From the NCBI GenBank assembly GCA_030704615.1, contig CM060731.1:40114001-40178000 (forward strand): a stretch of 64,000 bases of DNA. Reading direction: 5' to 3'. Shown in pieces: positions 1 to 45,263 of this stretch. The notes beneath the pieces were generated by a model. The model was given only the letters and a program-made list of their open reading frames with translations, had not been told where the DNA came from and ran no database searches. Each line of letters begins with the position of its first letter. The stretch's first letter is position 1. Both the position numbers and the translations under genes were made by a program. The DNA is from Takakia lepidozioides (lineage: Eukaryota; Plantae; Bryophyta).

Positions 1-1667
1 AACAACATTGAAATTTGCTTGAGCACTATCCGCCATGAAACCTGCAAAATTTGGAGATGGCAGCCCATGACACGTATCAGAGAATTCCACATGAGCTTCT
101 GGGATTCCGTATCCTCGGATTGCATGTCACAAACTGCAATTGTCATAATTCGTTGGTACACTGGATCGTAGACATGACAAGCCATTGTCGTCCAATCCTT
201 CACTCGTTTCACATGATCAAACATAAGAAAACAGTTCTGCAAGTCCTCAGTCTTCTGCATCCGCTTCACGAGGCTAACCCCACTGCCCTCCCCAACAGTC
301 GACATTTTGAAAAGAAAAACTTTGATGGCACCTTGACCTGGGAATACATTGTCCTGGATGTAATCGTACTTGCTCACTCGTTTCAACTCCAAAATGTTGT
401 CTATGTAGCCTCTGATACCAGAGCCCATTCTTAATGCATTGATCTGATGCCGAATGTTAGGTGAACTCAAAGTGGAGAAATGATCCATGACCAGGTCCAA
501 TGCTGCACCGTCAAGTTTAGTCCCCACAGAATCCCCTTCACTCAAAATATGGCTTTCCAAGAAGGACTTGCTTGCGCCAAGAGCAATTGCAGATGTTGTT
601 GCGGATGGGTTTCTCCCGAACTCCTGTTTAATCAACCTCGATACTGTCTCAACACTCTCCCTGTAATCCCCCTTCGAGACAAGATGGTTATGGAATCCGA
701 AATGCACACAAGCTCTTGTCATTGTTTTCAAACGGTGGACAACATAGTACATTCTTGCTCCGCAGAGCGCCAAGCAGGATGACACAAGTTTGCAGACGAA
801 AGTGTTTGCCGGTGGAGGGGCAGTCCCAGGCTGAAATGGATTTTCCGCCAGACCCTCCCATTCGCTTTGATTATGAACCCCAGACTGAAGAAAGTGTCTG
901 CAATTCAAATTATCACACCTAAGGTGTCCATTGCAAACTGTTCTCCTAAAAACAAGCTTGTCATCATTCTGAATATTGGATGTTTTTGTTCTGCACCACG
1001 GGTGCCCGTCGTGTTTCTTGTCCATTCCATGCATCATGATTGTTACACCTCCAACTCGCGGAGGAGGAGGCAGCTCGAATAGGATATCGCCATCAAAAGT
1101 CTCTGGCAAGAACTTCACAGGCACCTGCTTCAAAGATTCCCAATCAATTCCTCGCAACTCACTTTTGAATCCAGCCATTCCTCCCATCGCCCGTAATTTT
1201 GGAATGACACTACAAATCTCTTCTTCATCAGCTTCTCCAACCACAGTAGGAAGGACTGGATTTGGAATTTCACTTATGTCATCATCGGACGAATCCGAAA
1301 GCTCAACGATTGGAGTGGAGGACGTCTGTTCTTTTTTTCACCACCACCTCCCTCTTGTCTTCAACGACCGAAGCAGCAGTCTCGGGCGTCACATATGACC
1401 CAAGGGACTTTCGCCGAGGCTCTCCAAGTACGGGCGCACTCTCCACTGGCTGATATGAGCCGTCTCATCACAGTTTTGGAAAGAGTATTTCAACAACTTC
1501 CCTTTCAAATCGTACACCTCTTTCTCCAAAAAGGTGGAGCCATTCTGAAGCTGAAAACGGGTAGCCAAGACATGTTCCAGAACAATTGCAAATCCATTGA
1601 CAAGGACTTCCCGGGAGAACGACACTGGTTTGTCGTCAGAGAAGAACTCCGCTTCAGAGGAAGCCAT
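1..1667 (-). pseudogene. Degenerate Mutator(MULE)-like DDE transposase with N-terminal Cys/His (GCM/FAR1-like) domain; runs off window start
   Basis: Manual minus-strand translation gives DKKHDGHPWC..TSNI..FRRTVCNGHLRCDNLNC, then FLMFDHVKRVKDWTTMACHVYDP..IAVCDMQSEDTESQ and PNFAGFMADSAQANFNVV (DDE-like acidic motifs). Stops and frameshifts are present (e.g. a frameshift near 60-70). Confidence 0.7.
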
Positions 1668-2887
1668 CTTCCTTCCTCGCGTACGTTGATACCTTGCTAT
1701 CGCAGACCTAGTGTAAATCGGTTTACTGATGTCTCCAGAACACAGTTGAAGAATGAGCAGAGAATATGGCGGAGGAAGCTCAGACGACGACAGTGCATAT
1801 TCTGTTATTCTTTCCAGATATGCAGCTGTCCATTTTAATTACTTTTCTTGTGGGCCCAGTGGTCAGAGTATCCCTAGGAGCAATGTCGGCAGCTGTTAAA
1901 CCGTTAATCAGAACCTCATCAATAAACACAATAACAAGCCGACTTCCTGGAAGCATGCCACAGGATCTGAGGGTGGGATTGCAGATTAAGTAAATGTATC
2001 TTTATACTACTACCAATGATCATGCGCACCTGGAAAGTTCAAAATGTGAAACGAACGTGGGGTTGGCTAACAAGGATGACCGTGTATGATATCCCAAAAT
2101 TTGTCATCAAACTCTCGTTCATTTACATATATTTGTTTAAGACTGTGCGCCAAGATTTCTGGGATTCGCTGTTATTTTTAAATATTGAAACCGTTCTAAT
2201 AAAGAACACGTCGTTTATTTTGGGCGACACACATCAGACATCGATAACTGAATACGAACAGCTGTACACACATTGCTGGCATGTGCACTAATAAGGGAAC
2301 GACTCTGTATAACGGTCACGCGAGAGGGAATCCGATGCTTCTAGAGACAAGCAACAATGCACGCAATCCCGCAAGAAATCGGGAGTCACTTCGTTTTTCT
2401 ACTTTTCGCACTTAGAGGGAGAGTGGTAGTCAAGATGGAGACGGTTCCTTCTACAATACAAAAGAGAATAAAGTCTCTTTATTTTACTTCCCTTAAAGAG
2501 AGACGCAGAGCAAGAGAGCAAATGACGAGGCGTCGTTTGTTGGAGAACACAGGGCCAAGGCAGCAGGTGAACGCGGAGACTGATTCACAAGAGCAGACCG
2601 AGACTGAGGCAGCGGCTGTGACACAGTTGGCGATAACAGTGCGCGTTGGAAACCAGCCTGTGGATGCAGAGATGACTCGCAGGGAAACAGAAGGAGGTGG
2701 AAGCACGAGGAATGCTGAACCGGGAGAAGGTCCAGAAACCCTAGAGCAGACAGAAATTCCAGCAGGGAAGAGGAAAACTGCAGAAGGGGATCCAATTTCA
2801 AAACCTAAGAAGACGCCAGTAAGTTTTCTCTAACTTACATTTCATTGTTGAAGATCTGCGTAGAGATTGAGTGGAATGTCCCAGAAA

Positions 2888-3369
2888 AGGATTGTCGCTA
2901 CCGACCATCACCACGAAACAACGGTGATTTGCTTTCTACTCCTCTGTTAAGGGTTTACCGCACAATGAGTAGGTGACTGACGGTACCGTTGTTCAGATCA
3001 TACAGTCTGTCTGATTGCCTTTCAAGCAGTCCTTCCTCTTCCCTTCTTTAGCAGGAACATGTGATTGAAGTCTACTGAATTGCGAGCGTCGTTAACGCCA
3101 TTCGATTCTCCTCATGAGATTTATTTACCTAGGTGTTTGAAGAGAGAGTGAGGGTCGGCATATTCAGTCATAATGTATTGTCATTACACAACACCGATCC
3201 GCCAGGTCCTTATCTTTTGTGATTGTCGTTAACGCCGTTCGCTATCGCTCTCGCTTTTGTTTTGAATTCGGCAGGATCAGCTTTGCTTATGTAGATGGTT
3301 CTGAATTTGTTTCACACCATTCATTGTGAGTTTCTTCGAGACAGAGTGATGGTCGTTACCGCCGTTCAC
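2888..3369. repeat. Cluster of degenerate 24-bp palindromes (consensus GTGAATGTCGT-NN-ACGACATTCAC) in intron 1
   Basis: Copies at 2888, 2973 (weak), 3082, 3219 and 3346. Confidence 0.75.
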
Positions 3370-5237
3370 TATTTGCAAATTACTCAGTCAGATTTGAATG
3401 GCATCGTGCAGAAAACTGTGAGGTCCAAGCCTACAGGATCAGAGGGGAAAGGATCTGGAGATGGGGACGAGTCTGGAAAAAGCTCAGAGAATACAGATGA
3501 AGCAGATGAATCTGAAGTGCACTACCTTGACAAGGTGAAAGAACTCATGTCATTCCAGAAGGTAAACTCTCAGGAGGTTATAAGGGACATGCTCATATCT
3601 GAAGGCATCTGGACATCCCTCTGTGTCGGATGATATCTATGCATGTTGTGCGTCCACCTTTTTCCCATGACATAACAAAATTGGAGAGTGATTTTGTGCA
3701 TCGATACAGACTTGGTGCACAAGTTTTTTATGTGTCACTGACGGACATAAATGGGAAAAGCACATTAGTGTCTCCAGAGATCAGTGATAACTGGGATGAG
3801 TGCTGGAAAGATGCCAATGAGGAGTTCGAGCTGGGCCTCATGATGGGAAAGAACACCCAGCAATTCTGCAACCACATGTTCTACGTCTGGGACGGCAACC
3901 ACCGATTGCTGGCATGGATGGGATACATCCAGAAACACCATACGAAAGACAAAGACAAGCATGTTGCTGTGGATGCAATGGTTTTGGATCCAGGAAACGA
4001 CATCGCTAGGCTTCTTACAGCTATGCACGACGTGAACAAGTAAGTCATCCTAGAGATTTCATTCCCTCTGTAGTGTCTTGTTAATCCCCAAAAAACAGTG
4101 TTAAGGAATGCAATGTTTCCAATGTTTTTGCAGATCGACAGAGAAATCGCATGTGACAACAAGCTTGGTCCACACATTATTCCGAATTCAGAGGATTGGT
4201 CTGATGAAGCTGGATGATTTTCGGACAGTACTCCCACCCAATATAATCAAGAAGTACGAAACATGAAGAGCTGCATGCACTTGGTATTCTTTGACTCGAG
4301 AGGCGTTTCTGGAGTACATGTATGCGGTAAGCCCGAGTCTGTACTCAGTTTACTTTTCGAATACATGTTTGTAGTCCCTTCGGTGCTAATCACTATTTGA
4401 ATCAATGCAGCAAGAACTGGCAGAGGCAGAGAAGGGAAAATCCGAATATTACCGCACTACACCAGAGGAACTAAGGGCATCAAAGAGTGTGGAAGCAGCA
4501 ATAAAGAAGGAGTTTGAAATGCGAAGAACCAAATTGATGTCCGCCTTCGGAAAGCAGCTTAGAATAGTAGATCCTGGACTTGGTTCTGAGTTCCTTCAGC
4601 AGATCAAATCTCACTATGACAAGCATGTGCATCCGGAGATGCAGCAGGAGAAATTGCACCGGTTGGCCATATCCATGGTCGACCCACAAACAAAAATAAG
4701 GTGGCTGGAGATATGGAACTCAGATCAGACAATAAAGGACTTGAATCAGTTCCCAAAGAGCACCATACAGCCTGGCACAAAGGTGGAAGGAATCAGTGAT
4801 TTGGTGTTTGATAACTGGCTCCACAAGGCTACATTTTGGAGTCAGGTGTGTATTCAAATAAGCCGTTTTCTTTTCTTCAATTATGTGATGAGTATCTTAT
4901 TTGCAATACTGACAAATATACAATTTGCAGTTCGAAAAGCGCGCCGTCATTGTGCTGGATCAGACTTTGAAGGACTTGAACATTTCGATTGTTTCCCCTC
5001 CCCAAATGTCATTGGAGGCATACATAAGGAAGTGGAGAGGTCTCACCTGGAAATACTGTTTTTTCCGGGAGTTATCCAAAGATGGTAACATTTTACGGTC
5101 CAACGACTTTGACAGTCAGGTTGGAGGAGAGTGGGTCATGATGCGAGTTGTGTACAGGTGCAATATCATACTGGAAATTCTACTGTATTTTTTGGGAAAT
5201 AATTTGGCTTCATAAGGATTGTAATCATAGATCCAAA

Positions 5238-5656
5238 TTGAATGTCGTTGACGACATTCACTTCTTTGTCTGAGTCATTCTTAAGCGAGAATTTGAATTC
5301 ACCTGGATTAGGAGCTTAGGGTGTAATTATAGTGTCCCTGATTAGAATTGATAATGTCCGTGAACGGCGTTGACGACATTCACATCCAGAGTTGTTGAGA
5401 GGTCCTCAGAGTTATGTAAGTTTTTGTAATGTCCATAGAGTTTACAGTGAGGGTTCCTCACTTCAGTTTGCTGAATGTCGATGCAGACATTCAGTTGTTC
5501 ATTAGCAATGTATTCACAAATCCAAAGTGAATGTCGTTGACGACATTCACTTCTATGTCTGTGTCATTCCAAAGCGAGAGTTTGCATTCACGTGGATTAG
5601 GGTGTATTTACAGTATCATTGAATGGAATGTTTTGAATGGCGTTGACGACATTCAC
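5238..5656. repeat. Cluster of five 24-bp palindromes in an intron, partly from a ~290-bp tandem duplication
   Basis: Copies at 5238, 5360, 5471, 5527 (perfect GTGAATGTCGTTGACGACATTCAC) and 5633. Another copy lies at 6971-6994 in a later intron. Confidence 0.9.
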
Positions 5657-7431
5657 ATCCGGAGCAGTCGTGTGGTCTTGAAAGGTCCTTGGAGCAGTTC
5701 TCAGAGCCATTTCATTCTATGTTTTTTCATTCTGTGCTACTTCATCTTACTCACTTCGCGCTTTGGTGGTTGGGATTTATCTCCTATTTAACAGATACAT
5801 GAAATATGTGCTTATGGAAAGAAATCACCTAAGCGGTATTTCAGACTATCTTGACATGTGGTCGGACCCTGCAAACGATCCAACCATGTATACTGCAGGG
5901 ATATTGAAGGACTGGAGTCCTTCTCACTTCAGAGATTGTGGCTGGTACCTTGACTGCCCACCGGAGCACACGACCTTTCAAGCACAGCATATGAAATATT
6001 TGAACAATAATGCTGAGATGCTGGCGCCTCTGACTGACGAAGACTACCAAAGAAACATAGCAACATTGGCTGCCAAGGAGCCTGATGCTCAGGGAACGCC
6101 GCAGAAGGGAAAGAAGGCGGGCCGTAAACCAAAAGACAAGGCTCTTGATGTCATAGCCATCTCACCAGCAAATCCAAAGGACAAAGACAAGTCCAAAGAG
6201 AAGGAAAATGACAAGGGGAAGGAGAAAGAAAAGGAGATGGAGAGTGGGCAAGACTTCACTGCTGGAAGATATACCCGCACAGTTCAGTGCGTGTTCGATG
6301 CCAAGCCACACCCTTCCCGTTCTGATTCGGCAGGAGAGATTAAAATTGTCAATGAGGGTTGGCTGTCGATGCAGAGTCGAAAGAGAAGATACACTGGGGT
6401 GCATTCGCCTACCTGGGACAACATAATCTCATTCCTCAATCTGGTGAGAATTCCAGTTTCTTTCCTTTTTCTCTGAAAGTTTCATTGGCAGTATTTCAGT
6501 CTGGTTCTTTGAAAACATTCTTGCCATCGTTCTTAAAAAAAACATGTCTGTTGCAGGTGAGCACAGGCCCCACCTTCGTGTGCGGTGTGCAGAAAACATA
6601 TGCGGCTGACATTGTCATTCTCGACATCCCGGATGGCCAGGCTGTGCCAGAAGTTCTTCCAAAGGGCAAGATGCCAGGCTGGAACAAATTCGAGGACAAC
6701 TACTGGAGTTGGGTGTTCGGGTTCTGTAATAATTTCCTTTTTGATGCAGGGACACTTCTGCTTTTTCAGTCATGTGACAAAGATAGTCGTCGGGCATTGG
6801 CATCATACCTCAAGTCTTCAGGGTTTGAAGTTTTGCGCACATGGAATTGTGTGAATAGCCTCTACCTTGTAAAAGGGGGTTTCCCTGGTCAGCTGGTACG
6901 CCGTCTCCCTTCTGCTTGTGCTTTCATGATGAGTTTGAATGTTCTCTGCAGCTCCACTCTAGAAGAATCTGTCATGATCGACACCGATCATCACCGATTC
7001 GTGATAAAAATGATTGTTTTGTGCCTAAGTTCTGAATAACCGATGTACACACTTCCACTATAGATTGTGTTTACCACACTAACCTGCTATCTTTGGCAGA
7101 CGAGGATGTTCGAGGCGATCTGTCTGCGCAAGATTCGCACCTCCAAGACACCATCCTCCATCCGCAGCTTTGAGATTTCTGACCAGGGTTGTTTTGTCAA
7201 CCCCCCCTATGAGCCGCATGTCGATGACATTTTGTACAACTTCATGCAGTCCAGTCAGACTCTGAAGAGACCAGATGGCACTCCCTGGAGAGGTGCAAAG
7301 GAAAAATCCCCAGCGTTCATGCAAATACTGCTGGAGTCATGCAGCCACCACTCTGCACGGGTGGTCGATCTTTCTGTGTCCACAGGTTCGTTCTCTCCCT
7401 TCCGAATTGATTTTCTTTCACCAGTTCCATC

Positions 7432-8416
7432 TGCTTAAGGAGCCAAAATGGGCTCCAATCTCTGGAAGAGAGGCCAGATAATTGTCCGGAAGAAAGGGGA
7501 AGGCCAAAACCCTTGGCTTGTACATAAGCAATTCCATCTTTGTGGCCCCAATCTGGGGACCAAGGAAACAGATTGACTTTTATCCGTGACTCTTGGTAAT
7601 TTGGAGGCCAGGGCCTTATCTGCATCTTCCCTTTGAGCAGAACTGCACAGTGTAAAATCCTCTAGCCATGGACTGACAGAAGTGGTGGGTAAGGATGCTC
7701 AATTATCCACTTACGGACCCATTGTCTCTCGTGCACTCTCCCTGGGAAATGAACAAGAATGCCATGCTGAGACATTTCCTGGACTGAGCCTTGACAAATT
7801 CCATATTCAAAGGAAGCACTTGCTGACTGTCATCTCCCGAGGGGATTTGATCAGCCCAGGGGACGCTGTCCAACCGAGAGGGGCCTAACTAGTTCCGGGC
7901 CCTTACCCAGGAGTGACATAGACTGCTGACCTCCTCTACCTTTCACTGACCAACAGGCACGCCCCTTTGAGCCTGAGATACCACTCTTTCTACGCGGGGC
8001 ACCACCTAGACGACATTACGAGCAACGAGCAACAGAACAAACAGACAGAAGGGGGCGAGAGAGGATGGGAGGCATGACTTGCAGGGCACGAGAGAAGAAT
8101 GAGATGAAGTGTGCAGGCTGCGGAGTTCTACAGCCGACACCCGTGCTGGGCAGCAATAACTCAGATCGCCGTAAGCCGCAAATTCACGACAGGGACCTCA
8201 AGTCGAGGGGATCCACAACAGGTCTCTTCAAATACTCTTGTTTCCACATACAGACGTGCACAATCTGTTCCTGGCGCACACCGCCCAACCCAGTAAACCA
8301 CAAAAACTGCAGTGCGAGTGAGTGAATGAACGAACACAGCTGCAGCGCAAAACGAGAGCGTGCAGAGAGAGAGGTGCGAGACAGGCGGAATGAGATGAGG
8401 CCCCGTTTACAAGTCA
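7432..8416. mobile_element. Possible solo-LTR-like insertion following the last visible exon of the MTase-like gene
   Basis: Abrupt change in composition after the last exon; TG...CA ends. No TSD confirmed. Confidence 0.25.
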
Positions 8417-26117: not shown

Positions 26118-29100
26118 TCACCAATAGTCCCCACAAGAGCACACCCCATTCTTGAAATGGTGAAAGCGAATAGAATCCCTGGCAATAATCTCTCGCCCAA
26201 CAATTCTGGAGATGAATTTGGTGGCGGTGTGGCAATCCCCACATACCCGAAGGTTTTTTATTATGCGGATGGGTGTCTCAGGGGTTGTGCTAATCAGCCC
26301 AAAAGCAATGGCCAGCTTTTCGCTGTGGTGACAAAGGGCCTGTTCTTTTGTCTGTTGATCCACATCATGCAACACAAAACGAGTATCAGGCATATATCCT
26401 GCCTCCTTTATTTGAATAGCCAATCTCTCCAATTCGGCATAGATCTCCTCAGTTTGTGGGTGTGTTCTATCGTCTACAACAAATTTATGTACCCTGTTCT
26501 TCACCTCAATCCAGCTGCACCCAGGTTCCTTCTTCATGCCTCTGTCCTTCATTGCTTTTCTCACCTTTGCTATGTCATCCCACATGCCAGCAGCAGCATA
26601 TATGTTTGAAAGTGACACATACACTGAAGCATTTTCTGGTTCTAACTTGAGGATCCATTGGGCAGCACGTTCTGCTCGGTCAACGTTGCCGTGGATTCTG
26701 CAGGCACCAAGCAAAGCCCCCCACATTGAGGCATCTGGTTCAAATGGCATTTTGTCGATGAACTCCTCTGCCTCATCCAAGCGCCCTGCACGGCCAAGAA
26801 GGTCAACCATGCAGCCATAGTGTCTTCGTGTTGGTGTTATGCCATGATCTGCACTCATAGAAAGGAAGTAACAATGGCCTTCATCCACTAGGCCCACATG
26901 GCTGCACGAAGAGAGAACACCAATGAATGTGACGTCATCTGGCTTCAACCCTTCCCATTGCATTTGTTCAAAGAGTTGGAGAGCCTCTTTGCCAAGCCCA
27001 TGCTGGGCATATCCCATGATCATTGCAGTCCATGAGACCTCGTCTCGCTCGTGAATGTCGTCAAACACTTGCCGTGCATATCCCAAATTTCCACACTTGG
27101 CATACATGTCCACAAGAGCGTTACACACTCGGACATCCTCCAATCCAGATCTGATGATGAGATCATGGACAGACTTGCCCTCTGCCAGAGTTGCTAGGCT
27201 GGCACATGTATTGAGGATGCTAATAAAAGTGACTTCATTAGGCTTCACACCTTCTCGTTGCATTTGGCGAAAGAGTTCAAATGCCTCTTCACCATGCCCG
27301 TGCTGAGCTAGTCCTGCAATCATCACAGTCCATGAGACCACATTTCGCTCAGACATTTTGACAAATACTTCATGTGCACCTGCGACAGACCCACACCTGC
27401 AGTACATGCTGACAAGGGCAGTCCCGACAAGGACACCTGACTCGAATCCAGCTTTGATGATGCCTTCATGGAGCCATTTTCCCTGTTCCAGAACAATGGG
27501 GCTGGCACATGCATTCAGGATGCTCAGGAAAGTGACCATGTCGGCCTTCATGCCTGCTTGTTGCATCTGCCGAAAGAGGTCAATTGCTTCGTCCCCATGC
27601 CCTTGCTGGGCTAATCCTGCAATCATCGCATTCCAAGAGATCACATCTCGCTTAGGCATGTTGTCAAACACTTGATGTGCATTCAACACACTCCCACACT
27701 TGAAATACATGGTGACAAGGGCATTCCCTACTCCAACATCGGACTCAAAACCAGCTTTGCTGATCTGAGCATGGACGTGCTTGCCCTTGTCCAGGGACAC
27801 TGGGGTGGTGCATGCATTGAGGATGCTCATGAAAGTGACCTTATCTGCCTTTAACCCTTCTTGTTGCATTGTCTTAAAGAGTTTAAATGCCTCTTCACTG
27901 TGACCCTGCTGTGATAATCCTGCAATCATCGCATTCCATGAGGTCACATCGCGCCTAGGCATTTTCAGAAACACATGTTGCGCATCCTCGACACTCCCGC
28001 ACTTACAATACATGCTGACAAGAGCAGTCCCCACCCTCACATCTGACTCATATCCAGATTCGATGATGCCTGCGTGGAGCCACTTGCCCTGTCCCACGCG
28101 TACTAAATTGCCACAAGCGACCAGGATGCTTATAAAAGTAACCTTGTTAGGCTTCATACCTTCTCCTTGCATTTGCTGAAAGAGTTCAAATGCTTCTTCA
28201 GCAAGGCCTTGCTGAGCCAATCCAGCAATCATTGCATTCCATGAGATCACATCTGGCTTATGTATTTTGTCAAATACCTTGCGTGCATTGACAACACTCC
28301 CACATTTACAATACATGCTAACAAGAGCAGTACAAACTTGAACGTCTGAGTCCAATCCAACTTTCCTAATAACATCATGGAGCCGCTTTCCCTTTTCTAG
28401 GGCTGCTGGGTTGCCACATGCGTTCAGGATGCTGATGAAAGTGACCTCATTTGGCTCTATTCCTTCTTGCTGCATCCTCCCCAAGAGCTCAAATGCCTCT
28501 TCACTATGCCCTTGCTTAGCTAACCCTGCAATCATCGCAGCCCAGGATATCACATTCCGTTTAGGCATTCTGTCAAACACTTGCCGCGCATCCATCACAC
28601 TACCACACTTGCAATACATGGTGACCAGTGCAGTCCCCACTTTGACATCTGACTCCAATCCTGCTTTGATAACCTCCACATGAAGCAGCTTTCCCTGTTC
28701 CAGGGCTAAAGGGCTGCCACATGCGTTGAGGATGCTCATGAAAGTGACCTTGTTTGGTTCCACAGCTTCTCGTTGCATTTGCCCAAAGAGTTCAAATGCC
28801 TCCTTGGCATACCCTAGCTTAGCTAGTCCTGCAATCATCGCAGTCCATGAGACCACATTGCGTTCAGGCATTTGATCGAATACATGGCGCGCATCCACAA
28901 CACTTCCGCACTTGCAATACATGCTCAGAAGGGTGTTTCCCAAGAATGTGTTTGACTGAAATCCACTTTTAATAATGTGGGCATGGACAGCCTTGCCATC
29001 TGCCAGGGCATTTGTCTTTGCATACCCCTGCAAGAGTTGCGCACAGGTATCGGAATATGAACGAAATCCCCGTGACTCCATCATATCCAGAAGGAGCATT

Positions 29101-29303
29101 GCCTCCTTCAACTGCCCATCCTTGGCCGCTAAGCTCGCATTCTCACCAGTTCCACAAGTGCCCTTGTCCCCTTCCCACTTTGCAATTGTTTTCCACCCTC
29201 CATTAGCAACAGTGGCGATGGTGAACACGCCAATGCCCATACCCTTGCCGTCACTCTGATGCTCAATAGACAACTGGGTCTGATTCCAGATTTGAAGCCC
29301 CAC
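26118..29303 (-). CDS. PLS-class PPR protein with E and DYW cytidine deaminase domains (organellar C-to-U editing factor)
   Basis: 1061-aa ORF with repeated P-L-S triplets, PG box PGCSWIE, HSEKLA, KNLRVCGDCH and terminal CSCGDYW. The exact start is uncertain. Confidence 0.97.
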   Translation of the reverse strand: MGLQIWNQTQLSIEHQSDGKGMGIGVFTIATVANGGWKTIAKWEGDKGTCGTGENASLAAKDGQLKEAMLLLDMMESRGFRSYSDTCAQLLQGYAKTNALADGKAVHAHIIKSGFQSNTFLGNTLLSMYCKCGSVVDARHVFDQMPERNVVSWTAMIAGLAKLGYAKEAFELFGQMQREAVEPNKVTFMSILNACGSPLALEQGKLLHVEVIKAGLESDVKVGTALVTMYCKCGSVMDARQVFDRMPKRNVISWAAMIAGLAKQGHSEEAFELLGRMQQEGIEPNEVTFISILNACGNPAALEKGKRLHDVIRKVGLDSDVQVCTALVSMYCKCGSVVNARKVFDKIHKPDVISWNAMIAGLAQQGLAEEAFELFQQMQGEGMKPNKVTFISILVACGNLVRVGQGKWLHAGIIESGYESDVRVGTALVSMYCKCGSVEDAQHVFLKMPRRDVTSWNAMIAGLSQQGHSEEAFKLFKTMQQEGLKADKVTFMSILNACTTPVSLDKGKHVHAQISKAGFESDVGVGNALVTMYFKCGSVLNAHQVFDNMPKRDVISWNAMIAGLAQQGHGDEAIDLFRQMQQAGMKADMVTFLSILNACASPIVLEQGKWLHEGIIKAGFESGVLVGTALVSMYCRCGSVAGAHEVFVKMSERNVVSWTVMIAGLAQHGHGEEAFELFRQMQREGVKPNEVTFISILNTCASLATLAEGKSVHDLIIRSGLEDVRVCNALVDMYAKCGNLGYARQVFDDIHERDEVSWTAMIMGYAQHGLGKEALQLFEQMQWEGLKPDDVTFIGVLSSCSHVGLVDEGHCYFLSMSADHGITPTRRHYGCMVDLLGRAGRLDEAEEFIDKMPFEPDASMWGALLGACRIHGNVDRAERAAQWILKLEPENASVYVSLSNIYAAAGMWDDIAKVRKAMKDRGMKKEPGCSWIEVKNRVHKFVVDDRTHPQTEEIYAELERLAIQIKEAGYMPDTRFVLHDVDQQTKEQALCHHSEKLAIAFGLISTTPETPIRIIKNLRVCGDCHTATKFISRIVGREIIARDSIRFHHFKNGVCSCGDYW

Positions 29304-31075
29304 TACCCTGCATGATAAACAACCAAAAGCTCAACGCCTGATTCTTTAACCCCTTCGATTCCCTTTCTTTCATGAGTACATTCTTATCACAAGCTATAAC
29401 TTAGAGATCTTCTAATTCTGTTACATCCACATTGGGACGGAAGTACAGCGTACCGAACACTCCAGATTTTCCTTTGACGGCCCATTACAACAATCCCAGT
29501 TGTCAGACCTTCAGCAATTGTTGGGGGCGGAGAGCCATAATGCGGGTCATCTTGTTCTCAGTGCAGTCAGAACGATGTAACACTACGTGTTGGGTCCTCT
29601 GAGCTTGGATCATCGAAATACCTTATGTCCAGTAAGACACTCATCGGTCGCCTAGTGCTCCAATTCTTCCAGAAGATCTGCTTTGATCAAACTGTCACTC
29701 CCAATATTTGGTCGAAGAGGTTCTCATCCCAATCGATCGATAGTTTGTTCATTGACATAGTCATGCATCCTCAGAACAGCTTTCAATCAACCCCCAAATC
29801 AGATAGTAGCTTTCGACAGACAAGCCACTCTCCTTGGAGCATTGCCAACAGATAGAACACCGTTCTGTGATGGAATTAGTCCTGGGACTTCGACATACAA
29901 TACCAGGCTCCGTCACACATTTGGGATCCGAGTAATAATGAGCATGAAGGCTGGCAGTAGTGAAGGAGGGGAGGATTGACGAAGAAGTGTCAGGATATAT
30001 CTGCACATTGTCTTGTCTCTCCTCCGATTCAAAGTAAAAACATACAAAGATTTGCTCAGGCCCGACTGGATACGCGTATGTATGAATGTTGTCGATGTAT
30101 ACAAAGAAAAGAAAGTAAGCCAACATGTTCAGGGCTCTGCTAAATCACAAATCTAATCCAATTTGCATGATAACACTTACGAATTGCGAAGAGAAATGAA
30201 CTCATAACGTCGGCAGAAAGCTCAAAGATGAGAGAGAGAGAGAGAGAGATTGCAATCCGTAATGAACGGAATGGAGTTGGGGCCAGTCCAATGCGCGAGC
30301 TGCAGGGGGGATGGCAACCGTATTTATATTGTAAGCAGATCTGACCTAACCAGTCTCACGACAGCAGCTTCTAAACCATCACATGGAAAGCAGCAGCGCA
30401 GGTCGCAAAAGTTGGAGAAGGAGGAGCCGTGGCAGCGAGCTCACAGTAGGCATGGCACGGGTGGCATCATATGCATTCTCCCCCGAGGCTACTGTGCTTG
30501 GCAGACTGGCCCTCTTCTTTAGTAGAACATCAAGAGCGTGTGAGTGGTACTCTCTGTACGGGACCTTTGTGCATTGTGGGAACTGCATTGTATTGAGATT
30601 TTCTTCAAACAGTTTCAAGCCAATTGCGGGGCAATGGAAACCAGTAGGGGAGGAGCAAGTCCATGGCCATGGGGATGAGCAAGGAGGTCATAACACGCAA
30701 TTATCTAAAAAGCCAAAATTCAGGTGTTGATCAATAGCGGGACAATGGAGGCAGAACGATCCATTCTGGAGGACGTGATTTCAAGCACGAGACTGCAAGA
30801 ATCTGGATCGGCCAAATACCTATCCAGAATTTGGACCAGGAGAAGCTTTAGAGAGAATAACTTCCAAACCAAAGTCATTGTTGGGACAATCGAGGCCCCT
30901 ACACATTTCGAGCATGGGAGTAGCAGGGAGGGTACAAGAAACTGGGGAAGCTGGTTGCAGTGCAGCTAGGGATATATACCCAAATTTCGGAAGGAGAAGC
31001 TTTGGGGGTTTAGGGGTTTAGCTTCCAAAATTCCTACCCGGAACATTGTAAAGCTAGAACCCCCACGAAAGGATA

Positions 31076-31507
31076 TGCTCTCGTCCTCTGCGGGTTAAGT
31101 CATGCACATGGGATTGTAAGCTATAGAACTTTGCCAAGCTGACAGGGAAGGATCTATTGCAGAGCACACATACAATCTAAGCCAAATGTTGCACGTAGCA
31201 AAGCATCAACACAGTTTCATCCAGCGTCCGTCACACATCCACTGCACCAGTTTGTACACCCAAAAACATCCTGCCTAAGCCTGATGATCTCTTCATTTAA
31301 AATAATCGGGAGAGGCTAATCTCGAGATCCAGATGCAGCACTCTTATTGGACATGTAGATTACAAGACCTCACATCCGCCAGCTCAGTTTCCAGGTTGGC
31401 TTATCTCCCGACTGTTAACGTAGGACAATCACATAACCAAAGATAGTCCTTGTTATCATTAATGTCCAACAACCTCATGCTTTTCATCCAAGGGACTGAC
31501 AGGAGAG
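31076..31507. repeat. LTR-like direct repeat, left copy (~430 bp)
   Basis: About 95% identical to 53618-54050 by manual count (~21 differences). Starts TGCTCTC. Confidence 0.9.
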
Positions 31508-31834: not shown

Positions 31835-32677
31835 TCAGCCAATCGTCATGCCCTCTACATTGATGCAGGTGAGATCGAAGACCAATCTGTTGTGCACCAA
31901 GGAGTCCACATGCATAGGGTGAGTTATGGGTGGCGTGGAATGATGTTGGGGAAGCAACAAGAACTTCCTCCCACGAAGTCTTTCAGTGATGAGATAAGGA
32001 CCCTCAAAGCATTTCGAAGCTTTGGAGATAATTTTCCCAGATTGCAGACGGACACACATAGTTTGGCCCACCAAGAATTCCTCTGAGTAGTGAACTTTCC
32101 TGTTGTAGTTACGAGCCTGCACAGCCTGGTGGTAGAGTGTACAGAGGTCCGATAAGCAAAAATCAGAGTGGATAGAGTAGTATCCCAATCATGATAGGGT
32201 GCAGTCGTACGATGCTTAACACCCAAATTAAAACACACAATCTGCATGAGCTGGTTACAAAATTCAGAGCCTTGATCGATGAGGATCTCCTGGGGACAGC
32301 CATGGCGCAAGATGACCTCGTTGAAGAAGAACTATGTCACTGTGTCTACATCCTTAGCAGCCAAGGGTTGAACCTCCACCCACTTAGATAGGTAATCAAT
32401 TGCCACAGCAATGTAACAATGTCTCTTAATCGTAGGCTGGAGTGGCCCAACAAGATCTAGGCCCACTCGGGCGAATGATTCAGACACCGGAATTGGTTGC
32501 AAAGCAAGTGAAGGATGGGCTCTAGGAATCAGTGTCTGAGAATGGCACTCCACACAGCAAGAGATAAAATGTGTAACATCTTGAACCATCCCTTTCCAAT
32601 GATACCTCTCTTGGAGCCTCTTCAAGATCTTAGTGATGCCCAAGTGACCAGCAAAAGCAGAAGAATGATGCAATTGA
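31835..32677 (-). pseudogene. Gypsy-type integrase (HHCC zinc finger + rve core), 3' part
   Basis: HHSSAFAGHLGITK..RYHWKGM..CVEC, VGLDLVGPL, AIDYLSKWVE, ILIDQGSEF, TTAPYH. Deletions and frameshifts present. Confidence 0.9.
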
Positions 32678-33773
32678 CACTATTTTAACTAATTCTGGAC
32701 TTTTGTTTGGTCCAGAAATAATATGAGAAATATGAATAAACAAAATTTATTATTGAAATAAAGCGATATATATGATTATTTTGTTTATTGTATACACAAT
32801 ATAATCCTCCAAACATTTTTTGGAGACAATATAAGTATGTATTGTGGTTTTAGAAGAACATCCACTGCCAAGTTGACGTTCACGAAAAAAATGGGAGGAC
32901 GCAATAAATTACACCATGATGTGAGGTCAGATATGTAAAACTTTTTGCAGAAAATGGTTGTCATATCAGATGACATACAAAACCAAACATAAAACAATCA
33001 TGGCATGTGATGAAGAGGATGATATGAAAGAATGTGTCCGCATACATTGATGATAAACATTTATATTTTATTAGAGATTGCAACTTTGGTGTTGCAATCA
33101 GACCTGTAACGTCAACTGTACATCCGTTGGACTTAATGTTATCCAGCGGCTCGAAGCCATACAACGGCTTACACTAACCCATTAATATTACAGAGCCTCC
33201 TCCCAAACGGCTCACAGTCAAGGCATGTGTTTGAAGACGCCTCCGGTTACCACAACCACTTGCAACGCTCTCCGCACCAGATGAAACGGAAATACTTTCG
33301 GAGAACTTGAACCTTAGTAGTAACGTTATCATCCGAAATGTTACTTGGAACTCTACTTGTTGAATCTCCTGATGCCCTTGAAGCCTGTCGGGAAGCCCGC
33401 CATTCTTGCCAATCACGAGGCTCTTCTTCTTCTTTTTGAATTCGCTCCTTGAATGTGACTGGGCAAAATAATTTTTCATATGACAAATGTCAGCTGAAAT
33501 GTGGAACATTTGTAGAAAAAATGATAAAGTAAAAGTGCAAGTGGAAGACACTTTCAAGATCAAATTCTCCATAAACAACAAATAGTGGGATAAGTACATA
33601 CCAAGGTAATCAGGTTCCTTTTGTTGTGGGATCCAAACACGAGGATCAACATATCTTCCATATCAAGCCCAATAGGCATGGTCACGACCAATAGGCTTAC
33701 AAGAACACTTGGCAGGGTTCTCGCTGATGTAATCTACGACTGTTGAAGCTGCAGCCATTTTCAATATATATGG

Positions 33774-34298
33774 CTACATAGCTTTTGTCATATCATCCTG
33801 GTCAACCAATCCCTTTGGTGATGGCTTGTATGAAATAGGGAAGAATCCAGTATTTGGTGGGTTTCGAAGGCCCTTTAATGGCTCATCATCAACAATGAGT
33901 ATTTGTCCTTGCGTTGCAAAGGGTGTACCAGGGTACTTGGCAAGAACAATGCGAATATCCTTAACGAGATATTTCATCCCAGGCATGATATAACCGGTAG
34001 TGTCTTTGCAATCCTCAGCTGACCAGATGAAGCAAAACTTCTTCGCAATTTTCGTAGGAACTAAGCACTCGAGCATCCTACAAAGAACATGTCTTTAAGC
34101 ACATGACCAGATCGCCACGTGAAAATGCATGAACGCAAGGTTGAGAAACTCCAAGACTCCGGGCCGGGGAACCACAAAAGGTCTTTCGGGAACATAAACT
34201 GTAACTTTCCTAAAACGAAATCTTTCCTTAAACAATTCACCGCCGGTTGGAGGTGGCCGGTAGCAAAGGAGACCGTTGACACTCAATATTAACAGCAT
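33774..34298 (-). pseudogene. FCP1/NIF-like HAD phosphatase domain 3 (frameshifted)
   Basis: LLILSVNGLL, VVPRPGVLEFL..F..FHVAIWS, ILIVDDEPLKGLRNPPNT. Confidence 0.85.
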
Positions 34299-35852
34299 CC
34301 ATTTCCTCTTCTCTGATGTTGCAAATGAAGGTTGATGGACGATACCAACCTGCGCAATTTAAGTGTTCCCGCCGTCAGAAACAACACAATGTAGTGTTTC
34401 TTAGTTTCAGAGTGACTTCTACGTTTTCGGAGACATAAGTGTCCCGACAATGGACTACTGTAAAGGACCAAGAGTAGACCATATATTGAAGAGTTTGAGA
34501 TCACGAAAAGATGAACGTCGGCTGTCAAGTGGAGGTTAGTGGACGCACCTTGTCGGGAGGCGCATTCAAGAAGTTATGTGGCTCCATACTCGCTTGTATA
34601 GAAATTACGGAGTTAGTTTGGGACAGAAAAAAAAAACAGCAAACGAAAGTGGAGAAATTGTTTTGAAATGTACCATTGAAGCCTTATTGGAATGTCTAGC
34701 AGAAGAACAGTGGATTCCCGCGGGCTTGGATTGACGAGGTGCCACAACATCCGAGGGAGTCCTCATGTGTTTGGAGTCCGCTCTTTTTTTCTTGTCAGCC
34801 TTTTGTCCTTTGGAATGATTCCCTGCAGAGAAAGGAAATGACTCGGGGGCCGTTTTTCGCCTCTTTGGTGCAGAACATTATGCGAGCAGTTCAGGGTCAC
34901 ATTGTGTCGATGTTGAAGATGTTTTGCCATTGAACGACGGGAGAAGTGGAGGGGCAACAACAGGCAAGCACAGAAAATTGTCCCTTGAGCACTCGACATC
35001 TTGGATGGAATGAAAACGCAACGAAGGAATAATTTACCTCGGAACTGCATTCCAATGTAGACGTCGTTTGATAGGAAGGTCATAATCTGCAGATTTTCTT
35101 ACCTGGAGCGACAGATGAATATCAGACCCCAAACTAAGTGAAACTAGGAGAATGAGCAAGGAGCGAGAAATGAGTTTAAGTCACCTGACTCCTGCGGATT
35201 TGGGCTGTCCAACCCTCGTGCTGGGGAGATATGCGAGGAAGAGACGGAAGCAGGTGCAGCGGAGCCGTAGCCGAGTCCCCGACGGTTGGATAGACCAGAC
35301 CCTGCGTACTGAACAGGGAGGGTGAGGAATGTTCGGAAAGGTCGATAAAGTCTCCGGGATATTTGTGTTCTTCACCTGCACCTTGGTCTTTACCCCCAAG
35401 AGGACCCAAGATGATAAGAGTGTCGTCTGCTTCCCGGGAGGACAAGGGTCTGACAGAGGATCCATCCTCAATTTGAGCACCATCGTGAACCCTCGGAAAG
35501 CCTTCAATACTCCGACTCACAGCTGATCCGGAGGGTTCCTTTAGGGGACTTGAGGAACCGATGACGTTCTCAGCATCTCCTTGAACCTGCCAAAGAGACA
35601 TAATCATAAATCCGGGAATGCACGAATGCGAACCTCCACTGAACAGTGGAGGTCACTAGATATAGTTTTGTCCCCATATGAAGGCCTGTATCAGAGTCTT
35701 GGGATTGCCCGGAATGTGCGTCAAGAATTCAACTGAAAATGAGTCAAAATGAGAGTACCATATCTTTCACGTGTGTGATTACAAGGAAATGAAAAAGAGA
35801 AACCATGAAGATATTCAATAGCTCGATTGAGATGGGATTGATAAAAAATAAT

Positions 35853-36599
35853 TTATTTTGAAGCATCATATCTGAGACTCTTAAAACCATTGTCCTCAAT
35901 AAAATCCCAGAGTGGGCTAAACTTGGGATCGTTTGAAACATTGGGAAAAAAACTCAATACTATCATTTTTTTCCCAAGATAGCTTGAAACAGTGGGATGT
36001 TTCCTCATTCCAAGCAAATAGGTCTGAAGAACCTTGAGAAGATAGCAACCATGAGTCTCAACGGTCTGGAACGGTTTGAGAACAAGACATGAGTCGGGCG
36101 GGTTCAATACACACTTCATGGCGGTGTCGTCAATGAGCAGAGTGTTACTCTTGGTGTATTGCCCACCAAAACTCTGCCAGACCTTGACCAGTGGCTTCAA
36201 AAACAAATGAGGAGGGTCCAATCCTGATTTGAATTGAGGGTGAACTGAAGTAGGGCATGAAATACAATCCTCTTGAGATATAACGAAGGCCGGTTGAGGT
36301 AGACCACGAAGCAAAAAATCCAGGATGGGCTGCAAGTTCTTGTACATCATAGAGCTCCCAATCCCTAACCGGTAGTGTTTGTGCAACTCTGTCCACACTT
36401 CGCGATATTTCTCCCGTCTAAAGACAAGTCGGAATCCGACAAGAGCTGGAATTTTGTAGTCCGATTCTGAAAACCGGGGGACATTGTAGCTCTTCTGGTG
36501 CTTCAAGATTTTGCACAAGACTCCATTCACGTCAAAAATAATCAAACGCAACCCTTGCGCAGGAGGAGAAACAGGTGCTCCAATCTGCCAGAGAGTCAT
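35853..36599 (-). CDS. FCP1/NIF-like HAD phosphatase domain 2
   Basis: LIIFDVNGVL, FLKPLVKVW, SNTLLIDDTAMKCVLNPP. Confidence 0.85.
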   Translation of the reverse strand: MTLWQIGAPVSPPAQGLRLIIFDVNGVLCKILKHQKSYNVPRFSESDYKIPALVGFRLVFRREKYREVWTELHKHYRLGIGSSMMYKNLQPILDFLLRGLPQPAFVISQEDCISCPTSVHPQFKSGLDPPHLFLKPLVKVWQSFGGQYTKSNTLLIDDTAMKCVLNPPDSCLVLKPFQTVETHGCYLLKVLQTYLLGMRKHPTVSSYLGKKMIVLSFFPNVSNDPKFSPLWDFIEDNGFKSLRYDASK

Positions 36600-36704
36600 T
36601 GATACTTAGGATGATAAAAGAGAACAGTACAATGCATTGGAAAAACCGACACCAGGAAAGTGAACAAGAACATCCACTGGACAGCCGAGGTTCAGCAAAC
36701 TCAG

Positions 36705-37551
36705 TTAAAATATTTTATGTCCCAATGCAGCGACACACAACTCGAGATTGCTAAGAAACTTCTGCCACTTATAATCAAAGTCTCTAAGAAATTTGACCGC
36801 TGGGTCGTCCTCGAAGAAATCCTTCGAAACGCCGAAAGGATGTAGGTCGTTGAACGGCATGATATCCATCCCCGATAACCGGAACATGTTAAGGTGAGGC
36901 TTGAGCTCTTCCAGTAGAAATTTATCCTTGTCAGGGTCCACGCGCGCCTTATATTTTGGAAGGAAGATGGTATGTCCTAACGGGTTCAAGTATGACTTGT
37001 ACATATTGTCTACACTGTCGATGAGGAGAGTATTGGATTTGTAAGCCGTCGGGTCTTCCTCAACGAAAATGTCGTAAAGACGTTTAAAGTAGATGGGATT
37101 TTTGGAAGCTTTGGGCCATTTTTCGTTGAATGTCGATCTATGCATGACGGAATTCTCACTGCTGTAAGTTCTGACCTGGGAATAGTACTTCCCGAACATG
37201 GCCTTGGCGATAGTCTTGACGTTCATTTCAGGTCCAGTGTTCCAAAAACAAAACGGAAAACTCTTTGGCGGCCCACTTAACGAATTCGTCAAGACCGTTT
37301 CGCGTAGCTAACTTGAATTTCCTTGCGGAGATACAAGGCTGGGTGGCAGGAGGTGTTTTCTTTCCATCCTTTAGGAAAACCTCACAAATGTAACCGATGT
37401 CCAGAACCAGGACGTAGTATCCTGGCCGACATCCGTTCGGTCCCCAAGGAAGGGAATGCAGATCGTTTGGATTGACAGAAAGGGAATAGTCGACTGGAGG
37501 GTAATGCATGTTGTCCTGTGGAATAACAGAAGAGTTCATTATTAATTTCAA
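36705..37551 (-). pseudogene. FCP1/NIF-like HAD phosphatase domain 1 (frameshifted)
   Basis: VLVLDIG, TRNGLDEFV..EFSV, FKRLYDIF, SNTLLIDS..KSYLNP. Confidence 0.75.
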
Positions 37552-37766
37552 TTTGAGTAAAATCCCAAAGTAGACAAACGGAAGAATGGAGTTGAAATCA
37601 TTACCATTTTTGGAGTGGGCCGCTGAGATCCATGGGCAGGCTGTTCCTCCTCTTTCCCATCTCTACGTCCAACGTTATCGTCCTTCTCTGTGGAGCCAGA
37701 TGGCAACCTCGACTGTCCAGTGGAGGTAACTTGTATGACCGCATATAGAGAAGAAAAATTTATTTC

Positions 37767-40700: not shown

Positions 40701-41351
40701 TGTTTTTGTTAAAGGCCATTTTACAATAGACATCAAACATCCAGAACCTCCAGAAAGTATTCTGGTGACAAGAACTCCAACATCGTCCTCTCCCAGTTTG
40801 TCATTGAGGATCACCTCGTCCGGAATGCAGGCTTGAATCCTCCCCTCGAATAGTGCACCCCCATCATTACCCAACAGTACGCACTGCAAGTTTCTCCAAT
40901 TGATTCTTCCGAGTCCTCCACTCGGATTCCCGGAACTCTTCGATGGTCTGTGGTTTGATTCATCCTCATCGTCGTCAGAATTCTCGGAAGTATCTCTTGT
41001 CTCCGGCATAAAATCAGGATTCATGTCAGGCCCTCCTTGATACTCGTTATTCTCCGCAAGAACTTCGCCAACATTCCACATCACCGGGGTCCCAATGGCC
41101 TCCTTCAAGGTGTCAACATCCATATGTCCATAAGGAAGAGGACATAATGAGTGTGCTTCATCACAGGAGATGAGAACTACTGAAATGGTTGAGGAAGATA
41201 ATTGTTGTCCATGACATGTCCCAACCTCGGAGACATTAAGGTAGTCCCCAGTGGCTACTGCAGATGAGGACCTGGGAAGAGTAAGAAACACTCTTTGACC
41301 CGTCTCTAAAATCATGATCACCGGAACCTCCACTGCACACGCGAGGTTCAA
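37767..41351 (-). pseudogene. DDE transposase (DUF7869/Sola-like core) with two N-terminal Tnp1/En-Spm-like domains; frameshifted; intron 39886-39726
   Basis: Core: IDGVDVCETAWWTIHGI, FAKCTKCE, CIIHDKMD, LYLQMDNSAKDNKN, FLMVGHTHEDIDGFFS. N-terminal: VATG..CHGQQL..LPY..TLKEAIGTPVMW. Confidence 0.88.
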
Positions 41352-43764: not shown

Positions 43765-44328
43765 TTGATTTTTTGTTCTGTCAGTTTAAAAAGAACGGGC
43801 GTAGGAGTTCACACGGTGGCCAAAGATGGTTCTGAGACCGTCGTCGACATCTGTAAAAGGCCAATGAGACAGAATCCAGTAAGCATAAACGAAGCAGAAA
43901 ACCAAGATGAATCACTGGTTGTATCGAAAACAAAAACCTTCAAGAAGAGATATGAGAATCAAATATCAGATGTGGGCTCTGACGTGCGAACCTTCATAAA
44001 TCCGGGCACTAACGAATCAATGTTCGAGGGAGTTATTCGACGGGAGACGACGGAGGAAACAGAGGAAGAGAAACATGAAAGTGATGACTGTAATCTTCAG
44101 TCTGATTCAGATAATGACATTTCTGTAGGAGATAGTGAACAGTACCCGGGATCCGTCCTTCCGTCCTCTCCAGGATACAGTCCCTACTCTCCTCAGTATG
44201 CAGTCCTTGTAAATTCTCCAGAATATGTCCCCGCTGATTCTCCAGAATATGTCGGAGATTCTCCGACATATACACCTAGAGAGTACTCCCCTGAAACCTT
44301 GAGGATGATTCGAGAGAGTCTCCTGTAG
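43765..44328 (+). CDS. Acidic cargo protein with RNA Pol II CTD-like Y-S-P repeats
   Basis: C-terminus SSPGYSPYSPQYAVLVNSPEYVPADSPEYVGDSPTYTPREYSPET. Confidence 0.55.
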   Translation: MIFCSVSLKRTGVGVHTVAKDGSETVVDICKRPMRQNPVSINEAENQDESLVVSKTKTFKKRYENQISDVGSDVRTFINPGTNESMFEGVIRRETTEETEEEKHESDDCNLQSDSDNDISVGDSEQYPGSVLPSSPGYSPYSPQYAVLVNSPEYVPADSPEYVGDSPTYTPREYSPETLRMIRESLL

Positions 44329-44605
44329 TTATTGTAGATACAAGAAAATGAAAAGATGAAACTCATCTTACAAAAAAATATGGATTTCTTGTTGAAATTA
44401 TATATTCGTTATAGGAACAATTTTGAGACCGCATGATGTATGGAATGGCGAGACGAGCCTTCTATGAATAAATGTATTATTCTTCTTATAAGTGAAATCG
44501 TTTTCTCCTCCTGAATTGAACTCTTTTATCTGTCAGCTATGAGCGTTGAACCTCCACTGGACAGTGGAGGTTACTGTCCTAGGAATCTTGTATGGTTGTC
44601 ATGAT

Positions 44606-45127: not shown

Positions 45128-45263
45128 ATTGGGAAAATAAGAACTGGACAAGCACCTCAGTACCAAACAAGACACATTACAAAAGACCCCATCATGTCGA
45201 ATTTTCGAATGCTGAACCATCCCGCTCGTTCATTGTAGCACCCTCCCTTATGAAGGTTTTTTT

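What the first reader, a model, noticed from the sequence alone, without database searches (positions are those of the whole stretch)
2888..6994. Second palindrome family GTGAATGTCGT-NN-ACGACATTCAC clustered in introns of the ParB-MTase gene
Seen: ~11 copies (2888, 2973, 3082, 3219, 3346, 5238, 5360, 5471, 5527, 5633, 6971), all in predicted introns and spaced ~55-140 bp within clusters. Some copies change both arms symmetrically (5471 CTGAATGTC..GACATTCAG; 6971 ATGATCG..CGATCAT). The CG dinucleotides are mostly retained, although methylated CGs in TEs usually decay. Inference: selection for symmetry (dimer binding or RNA hairpin) and possibly local protection from 5mC.
Basis: partly seen in the sequence, partly recalled or inferred. 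Interest (0 to 1): 0.82.

Follow-up and report, generated by a model that had tools for sequence, protein, structure and literature searches.

The report
Plant transposon's parS-like intron palindromes
A high-copy plant jumping gene carries repeated 24-letter mirror-image DNA words in the introns of its ParB-fold/methylase-like gene, related elements carry different words of the same shape in the same place, and the words are likely docking sites by which the protein recognises its own element and likely keeps it active, an idea already proposed for seaweed transposons but untested.

Summary
Real. All 11 sites lie where stated, but only 4 are within 2 mismatches of the consensus and 3 (2888, 2973, 6971) match only by a CG core. 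Two pairs come from one ~280-bp duplication; the rest share no flanks. The host is a high-copy, probably Mutator-like plant transposon; its second gene joins a ParB/Srx fold (model of a relative) to an N4/N6-methylase-like domain lacking the catalytic motif. Of 35 loci with enough upstream DNA, 15 have at least 3 copies of an 11-2-11 palindrome there (0 of 28 distant windows, 0 of 350 shuffles). Clades have their own outer arms around a shared xCGx-NN-xCGx core; a held-out locus fits. There is no G·U bias or within-family compensation, so dimer binding beats RNA hairpin. CG retention is seen only in near-intact copies, so protection from 5mC is unproven. Best reading: parS-like self-recognition sites, VANC-like in role (0.5). 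The cargo gene and the inverted-repeat idea are published for algal transposons, and this scan found the system before in other genomes. New variant of a known kind.

The parts
2888..3369 (.). Cluster 1: five degenerate 11-2-11 sites (2888, 2973, 3082, 3219, 3346), 7 of 11 pairs each, CG core kept
   Evidence: the intron 2819-3411 is predicted only
5238..5656 (.). Cluster 2: five sites (5238, 5360, 5471, 5527 perfect, 5633); 5238/5527 and 5360/5633 are duplicates
5158..5794 (+). GT..AG intron holding cluster 2
   Evidence: X8 contig joint 5158 to 5796, in frame with homologues (frames)
6971..6994 (.). Single divergent site (9 of 11 pairs, 9 mismatches) in intron 6896-7099
   Evidence: record 30
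2522..7385 (+). Spliced ParB-fold + helical + N4/N6-methylase-like gene. Exons about 2522-2818, 3412-4039, 4135-4327, 4411-4845, 4931-5157, 5795-6443, 6593-6895, 7100-7385. This copy has a frameshift near 3604, a stop at 4264 and lacks its last exon. The ATG at 2435 is private to this copy.
3603..4037 (+). ParB/Srx-fold domain with vRp and WDGNHR motifs
   Evidence: model of relative P0002; fold searches
6593..7385 (+). Beta-class N4/N6 methylase-like domain; motif IV reads DIPD, motif I reads DLSVST
   Evidence: relative P0009 passes PF01555
1..1835 (-). Divergent gene, probably a Mutator-type transposase with a GCM/WRKY-like finger (recalled motif resemblance; no Pfam or PDB hit); cut by the window start
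   Evidence: homologue on the opposite strand upstream in 8 loci; negative searches
1..7440 (.). High-copy element: summed contig depth 87,000-461,000 against 57-484 in the flank; this copy ends at a unique junction near 7440
   Evidence: the tool warns that depth is no copy number

Best explanation
The palindromes are 24-bp inverted repeats in the non-coding DNA of a high-copy plant transposon's ParB-fold/methylase-like gene, and they are likely parS-like loading sites for a predicted dimer of that same protein, which would let each element family recognise its own copies and likely counter host silencing. Shown: the sites, two of the three introns (one of them only roughly), the high copy level, the ParB/Srx fold of a close relative, the fused methylase-like domain, and clade-specific arms around a fixed geometry. 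Inferred: each subunit reads one half-site (strongest positions 5, 7, 9, 10 bp from the centre); the outer 7 bp give family specificity and the inner xCGx core is shared; arrays grow by local tandem duplication and are then pruned to the site; an NTP-gated clamp spreads from the array over the element, as ParB, KorB and VirB do. The methylase-like domain is predicted not to catalyse in the canonical way and would act as a DNA- or cytosine-binding module. The anti-silencing outcome is by analogy with VANC and VirB and is the weakest step.
For: 15 of 35 loci (34 distinct relatives plus the window) with at least 1.2 kb upstream have 3 or more copies of an 11-2-11 palindrome within 2.5 kb of the ParB exon; 0 of 28 distant windows, 0 of 350 shuffles; odd spacers give 2 and 3 of 35. 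Arm sequences differ by clade and follow the ParB tree: CCAACTT (100/100), GCTACT (100/98), CCTATGG (100/96), CCATAT/CCCATGT (100/100); the window is sister to the last (90/94) and shares its inner CGT. Held-out locus L081, fetched after the pattern was fixed, has 4 sites (11, 9, 9, 11 pairs) with a new arm and the TCGG-NN-CCGA core 406-728 bp upstream of ParB. In the 6 relatives with both a site family and the transposase homologue, and in the window, sites lie in or near the ParB gene, none in the transposase hits. Model pLDDT 86; the top 8 of 48,161 chains are all ParB/Srx-superfamily, Z 5.3-6.8; best Foldseek hit Noc, E 2.5e-3. Methylase-like domain in 16 of 22 loci with 4.5 kb or more downstream. 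No hairpin signature. In the duplicated unit, sites are 45 of 48 identical against 118 of 140 flank (P 0.14), or 47 of 48 with family-majority alleles (P 0.01). Precedent: VANC binds motifs in introns and non-coding tandem repeats (PMC5735166, passages); VirB is a ParB-type anti-silencer (PMC10770331, abstract).
Against: No binding, expression or methylation data. No HTH was shown: the helices after the ParB fold match nothing clearly. 20 of 35 loci, the window's own upstream cluster among them, fail the strict test. In 18 of 19 loci with sites, non-palindromic repeats also occur upstream, so multiplicity in relatives is largely tandem duplication; the window is the exception. Gene and sites are physically linked, so agreement with the tree is expected by descent and is not proof of co-evolution. 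The arm-symmetry count (63 of 70 against 29) is partly built in by symmetric site picking. Several relatives carry a second, interleaved palindrome class that one protein does not explain. Fold Z-scores are under 8 and the ParB/Srx fold also occurs in non-clamp enzymes (10.1101/2025.10.10.680097, passages). Polymorphism depletion at sites is not significant.
Confidence: 0.5

Rival explanations
1. Same protein and sites, but the methylase is active and writes 4mC or 6mA at or around the sites (for example on the core CGs), which blocks 5mC and marks the element as self.
For: The domain is kept in 16 of 22 loci and P0009 passes PF01555. CG is the best-kept part of the window's sites (21 of 22). 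The element is less CpG-poor (0.51-0.74 in genes and the cluster-2 intron) than host DNA at 9-25 kb (0.33). Ectocarpus authors propose self-modification (PMC12477816, passage). Marchantia uses a 4mC enzyme with TSPPY (10.1101/2021.02.12.428880, passages).
Against: The canonical [DNSH]PP[YFW] motif (PMC4738411, passage) is met by 0 of 7 sequences read: DIPD, DTPF, DQPF, DVPE twice, DAPE, DMPS. Motif I is DL[ST]A[ST]TG-like rather than DPFxGSG. CG decay is heavy in relatives that still carry the domain, though these are dead copies.
Confidence: 0.15
2. The sites are operators: the ParB-fold protein binds them to repress or tune its own gene (and the divergent transposase), as KorB or DndB do, without anti-silencing.
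For: Arrays sit at the 5' end of the protein's own gene in nearly all loci; KorB is among the top fold matches.
Against: Second arrays lie 1.6-2.8 kb inside the gene, in different introns in different clades; simple repression needs neither many sites nor clade-specific arms.
Confidence: 0.15
3. The transposase (or a second accessory protein) binds the sites, as Spm TnpA and AtMu1 transposase bind cognate motifs.
For: Transposases can activate cognate copies by sequence (10.64898/2026.08.24.746577, passages). A second palindrome class is interleaved in several loci. The window's other element has an 11-2-11 family, and its ParB likeness is weak (8 of 300 shuffles score as high).
Against: Published transposase/TnpA effects are terminal, with 7-10-bp motifs; here sites avoid the transposase gene and cluster in the ParB gene.
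Confidence: 0.1
4. The sites are RNA hairpins, cruciforms, or neutral products of tandem duplication.
For: Arrays in relatives lie in degenerate tandem units (18 of 19); 5527 folds well (z -4.1); two window pairs are duplicates.
Against: No G·T excess and no compensation; 8 of 11 sites do not fold better than shuffles; no Rfam match; 8 of 28 distant windows have ordinary repeats but 0 of 28 have palindrome families; window flanks are unrelated while sites match; conservation falls from 0.8-0.9 at 9-10 bp from the centre to about 0.4 beyond 13 bp.
Confidence: 0.1

Closest known systems
Plavaka accessory gene PAG3 of the red alga Bostrychia (10.1101/2025.02.11.637652; section 8 read whole, other passages; supplements closed)
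   Same: Transposon cargo with a ParB-like N-terminus and tandem arrays of inverted repeats beside the gene, proposed to bind its own element
   Different: EnSpm/Plavaka host; fused to a 2OG oxygenase, with the methylase on a separate gene; arrays adjacent rather than intronic; no clade-by-clade site analysis in the text seen
Accessory gene of Sola1-1_Ec32 in Ectocarpus (PMC12477816; abstract, passages, part 2 of 5 of the references)
   Same: 1104-aa ParB-like plus N4C/N6A methylase fusion on the strand opposite the transposase; proposed self-modification
   Different: Brown alga, Sola1 transposase; 'palindrom' has 0 hits in its main text; catalytic state not discussed in the passages seen; homology to this family not tested
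VANDAL/VANC anti-silencing of Arabidopsis (PMC5735166; abstract and passages)
   Same: Mutator-like element, accessory protein, family-specific motifs amassed by tandem repeats in introns and other non-coding DNA
   Different: VANC motifs are 9-bp and 'palindrom' has 0 hits in the paper; anti-silencing is shown there, only inferred here; no VANC likeness appeared in Pfam scans
Bacterial ParB/parS, Noc, KorB and VirB clamps (PMC10770331 abstract; 10.1101/2025.10.10.680097 passages; others search listing only)
   Same: ParB/Srx fold, Box II-like DGNHR motif, arrays of palindromes next to the gene
   Different: No ParA; HTH and dimer not shown; sites 24 bp, not 16; eukaryotic, spliced, fused to a degenerate methylase, a fusion type reported as enriched in phages

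Membership tests
ParB-type CTPase clamp / parS system | ParB/Srx nucleotide-binding fold | tested here: met
   Model of relative P0002 (48% identical to the window exon); top 8 VIA hits ParB/Srx family, Z 5.3-6.8, rmsd 2.5-5.0
ParB-type CTPase clamp / parS system | Box II GxxR motif | tested here: met
   D-G-N-H invariant and R in at least 90% of 15 sequences; equivalence to Box II is recalled
ParB-type CTPase clamp / parS system | HTH DNA-binding domain after the fold | tested here: inconclusive
   Helices follow but match no HTH clearly (Spo0J Z 3.2); the next region was not modelled well
ParB-type CTPase clamp / parS system | Cognate palindromic sites near the gene | tested here: met
   binding itself untested
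ParB-type CTPase clamp / parS system | CTP binding, dimer clamp, sliding | not testable with these tools
   needs biochemistry
ParABS partition system | Linked ParA ATPase | tested here: inconclusive
   No ParA among 23 window ORFs scanned; element start lies outside the window
Beta-class N4C/N6A DNA methyltransferase | Permuted domain, motif IV before motif I | tested here: met
   P0009 PF01555 E 4.9e-7, above cut-off; window exons match family profiles
Beta-class N4C/N6A DNA methyltransferase | Catalytic [DNSH]PP[YFW] motif | tested here: not met
   0 of 7 sequences; window DIPD
VANC-type anti-silencing system | Family-specific motifs amassed in the element's non-coding DNA | tested here: met
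VANC-type anti-silencing system | Protein-induced hypomethylation and activation of cognate copies | not testable with these tools
   no methylome or transgenic data
Mutator-like element | MULE DDE transposase | tested here: inconclusive
   Motif resemblance recalled; no Pfam or PDB hit; gene cut by window start
Mutator-like element | Termini and 9-bp target duplication | not testable with these tools
   No genome held; left end outside window, right end truncated

The most novel reading that the evidence does not exclude
Land-plant transposons have turned a bacterial ParB/parS module into a self-recognition barcode: an NTP-gated sliding clamp loads on family-specific 24-bp palindromes in its own introns, spreads along the element through chromatin and carries a disarmed methylase that shields cytosines from host 5mC, with protein and outer arms diversifying together so that each family unlocks only itself. 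It would be the first nucleotide-gated ParB clamp acting on eukaryotic chromatin.
Probability: 0.3. Interest if true: 0.85.

Novelty: new variant of a known kind. Interest (0 to 1): 0.6.

Why it matters
VANDAL is described as the only transposon known to bind and modify its own sequence (10.1101/2025.02.11.637652, section 8). This family supplies at least ten natural protein-site pairs with one geometry and different arms, in an element abundant enough to matter for its host genome. That makes two open questions directly testable: how a transposon tells itself from its relatives when evading silencing, and whether ParB-type clamps work in eukaryotic nuclei. If true it also offers a set of orthogonal sequence-specific anti-silencing tools.

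Tried and rejected
No whole genome is held, so copies were seen only through contig tables (one search showed 40 of 530 difference rows). No RNA holder was listed; X8 is a guessed RNA run and does not cover 2100-3600. Single-sequence fold of P0009 failed (pLDDT 35). Alignment A2 misplaced C-terminal fragments and was dropped. The homodimer job gave no answer. Pfam and PDB sequence searches did not name the ParB domain (DndB only at E 0.06). No relatives in viral contigs or phages; one hit among prokaryote genomes, L081, has introns and is read as eukaryotic DNA in that assembly. My idea that CG-decayed relatives had lost the methylase was wrong. CG retention does not scale with stop density overall (Spearman 0.02, 16 loci); only the two near-intact genes stand apart. 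An apparent stop at a 5085 splice was my misreading, corrected. Four of 30 automatic families were dropped as off-register or composite. The second element's ParB/methylase identity was not established. Literature: 10 searches; the five aimed at this system found no land-plant description, but the library lacks most subscription journals, and Iyer 2011 (cited for green algae) and bioRxiv supplements were not seen.
Full report
Observation. All 11 listed positions carry a 24-bp inverted repeat with a 2-bp centre. One is perfect (5527), three are within 2 mismatches, four have 4-6, and 2888, 2973 and 6971 have 7-9, the last two at chance level by sequence. What unites them is the inner core: CG at half-site positions 9-10 in 21 of 22 half-sites. 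5238/5527 and 5360/5633 are halves of one ~280-bp duplication; every other pair has background flanks while the sites stay alike. The cluster-2 intron (5158-5794, GT..AG, in frame) is shown by a contig of run X8; the intron with 6971 is roughly supported; the first intron is predicted only.

Host element. Bases 1 to about 7440 are covered by 16,846 contigs of run X1 at summed depths of 87,000-461,000, against 57-484 beyond: a high-copy repeat, cut here at a unique junction. On the minus strand lies a gene that looks like a Mutator transposase (recalled motifs; Pfam and PDB silent); its homologue lies on the opposite strand upstream in 8 related loci (20 loci have 4.5 kb or more upstream, counted). 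On the plus strand lies the spliced gene; this copy has a frameshift, a stop and no last exon. The one named homologue is a 1147-aa Ceratodon protein with PF01555; with the neighbouring DYW-PPR gene this points to a land plant, likely a bryophyte (inference).

Protein. A model of relative P0002 from an 87-row alignment (pLDDT 86) matches only ParB/Srx-family chains at the top (8 of 8 at Z 5 or more; Noc, KorB, Srx, PadC, ParB by Foldseek, none at E 0.001 or better). No HTH was shown. The C-terminal domain is a beta-class amino-methylase homologue, present in 16 of 22 loci long enough to hold it, but 0 of 7 sequences read keep [DNSH]PP[YFW].

Relatives. The best 80 of 325 metagenome hits were kept and collapsed to 48 distinct loci. 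Of 35 loci with at least 1.2 kb upstream, the window included, 15 have 3 or more copies of an 11-2-11 palindrome within 2.5 kb of the ParB exon; 0 of 28 distant windows and 0 of 350 shuffles do. The window's own upstream cluster fails this strict test. Arms differ between clades by 4.6 of 7 outer positions on average around a shared xCGx-NN-xCGx core, and follow well-supported ParB clades; linkage alone predicts that agreement. L081, fetched later, fits with a new arm. Conservation is 0.80-0.91 at 9-10 bp from the centre, 0.52-0.64 at 11-13 and 0.36-0.49 beyond (169 of 185 sites overlap the training set). Against a simple story: 18 of 19 loci with sites also have non-palindromic repeats upstream, so arrays are built by tandem duplication; yet 8 of 28 distant windows have such repeats and none has a palindrome family. 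Several loci carry a second interleaved palindrome class, unexplained.

DNA site or RNA hairpin. G·T and A·C mismatches are equal on the sense strand (230 and 235; 5 and 5 in the window) and double changes are not in excess (91 against 96 over 26 families; window alone 8 against 3.5, uncorrected P 0.022). Three of 11 window sites fold better than about 95% of shuffles; Rfam has no match. Half-sites behave independently, as expected for two subunits of a dimer.

CG retention. Window 21 of 22, L035 12 of 12, L081 6 of 8; other relatives 44 of 206, and those genes carry 1-4.6 stops per 100 residues against 0.3-0.5. Among X1 copies none of the 9 core CGs in cluster 2 shows a variant at 8% or more, while 3 flank CGs in 5030-5830 show decay-type variants and 9 show none; too few to decide. 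Retention fits purifying selection in a young family; protection from 5mC is neither shown nor excluded.

Mechanism. Most likely the protein binds the arrays as a dimer, loads and spreads in the ParB manner, and keeps its own family expressed (0.5). Rivals: active 4mC/6mA writer (0.15), autorepression (0.15), transposase or another binder (0.1), hairpin or neutral repeat (0.1). Binding, nucleotide gating and the outcome are all inferred.

Known work. ParB plus N4/N6-methylase cargo is described in Ectocarpus Sola1 (PMC12477816, passage), and inverted-repeat arrays beside a ParB-like cargo gene in red-algal Plavaka, with the self-binding idea (10.1101/2025.02.11.637652, section 8). VANC is the proven analogue (PMC5735166, passages). 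I reached the Ectocarpus paper through earlier scan notes, which report the same kind of element with 15-18-bp palindromes in other genomes (unchecked). What this study adds: a land-plant, intronic form; a controlled survey showing one geometry with clade-specific arms; evidence against the hairpin reading; and a degenerate catalytic motif across the family. Verdict: real, new variant of a known but untested kind; interest 0.6.

Noticed in passing
window 32674-52278: Second, 19.6-kb transposon with 32-nt terminal inverted repeats (88%), a TTAA-like end, a DUF7869 transposase (E 8.5e-36), a NIF phosphatase gene and its own 11-2-11 palindrome AACCTCCACTG-NN-CAGTGGAGGTT in about 15 copies spread every 0.1-2.3 kb through coding and non-coding DNA.
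   Followed up: partly
window 45683-46181 (-) and 46651-48361 (+): ParB-like piece (GGQHT motif) on the minus strand and a methylase-like stretch on the plus strand of the second element, as if inverted; profile support is weak.
   Followed up: partly
window 31056-31507 and 53598-54048: About 450-bp direct repeats (94-95%) with integrase-like and gag-like fragments between: the second element seems to sit inside an LTR retrotransposon (labels recalled).
   Followed up: no
L008 12471-12777; L024, L065: Seven sites at exact 51-bp spacing in a downstream intron, like a plasmid centromere array.
   Followed up: partly
L039, L045, L053, L078, L018, L074, L037 upstream of the ParB exon: A second palindrome class (GxAxCCxAGCT half-site) interleaved with the first, shared across clades that differ in the first class; binder unknown.
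   Followed up: partly
P0002: Feature search ranks fungal DUF3723, a conserved Starship cargo gene, first (score 0.95, 177 of 256 features), hinting that DUF3723 is a ParB-fold relative; a lead only (Starship passages).
   Followed up: partly
L043 15520-17157: A ParB-methylase gene of this family lies next to a DUF7869 transposase homologue, suggesting the cargo moves between transposon superfamilies.
   Followed up: no
window 9000-29330 against 1-7385 and 32674-52278: Host-gene DNA is more CpG-poor (0.33-0.42) than both transposons (0.51-0.76; 1.28 in the divergent promoter).
   Followed up: partly
window 26118-29330 (-): Intact 1070-aa PLS-type PPR gene ending in DYW, with 303-bp repeats.
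   Followed up: no
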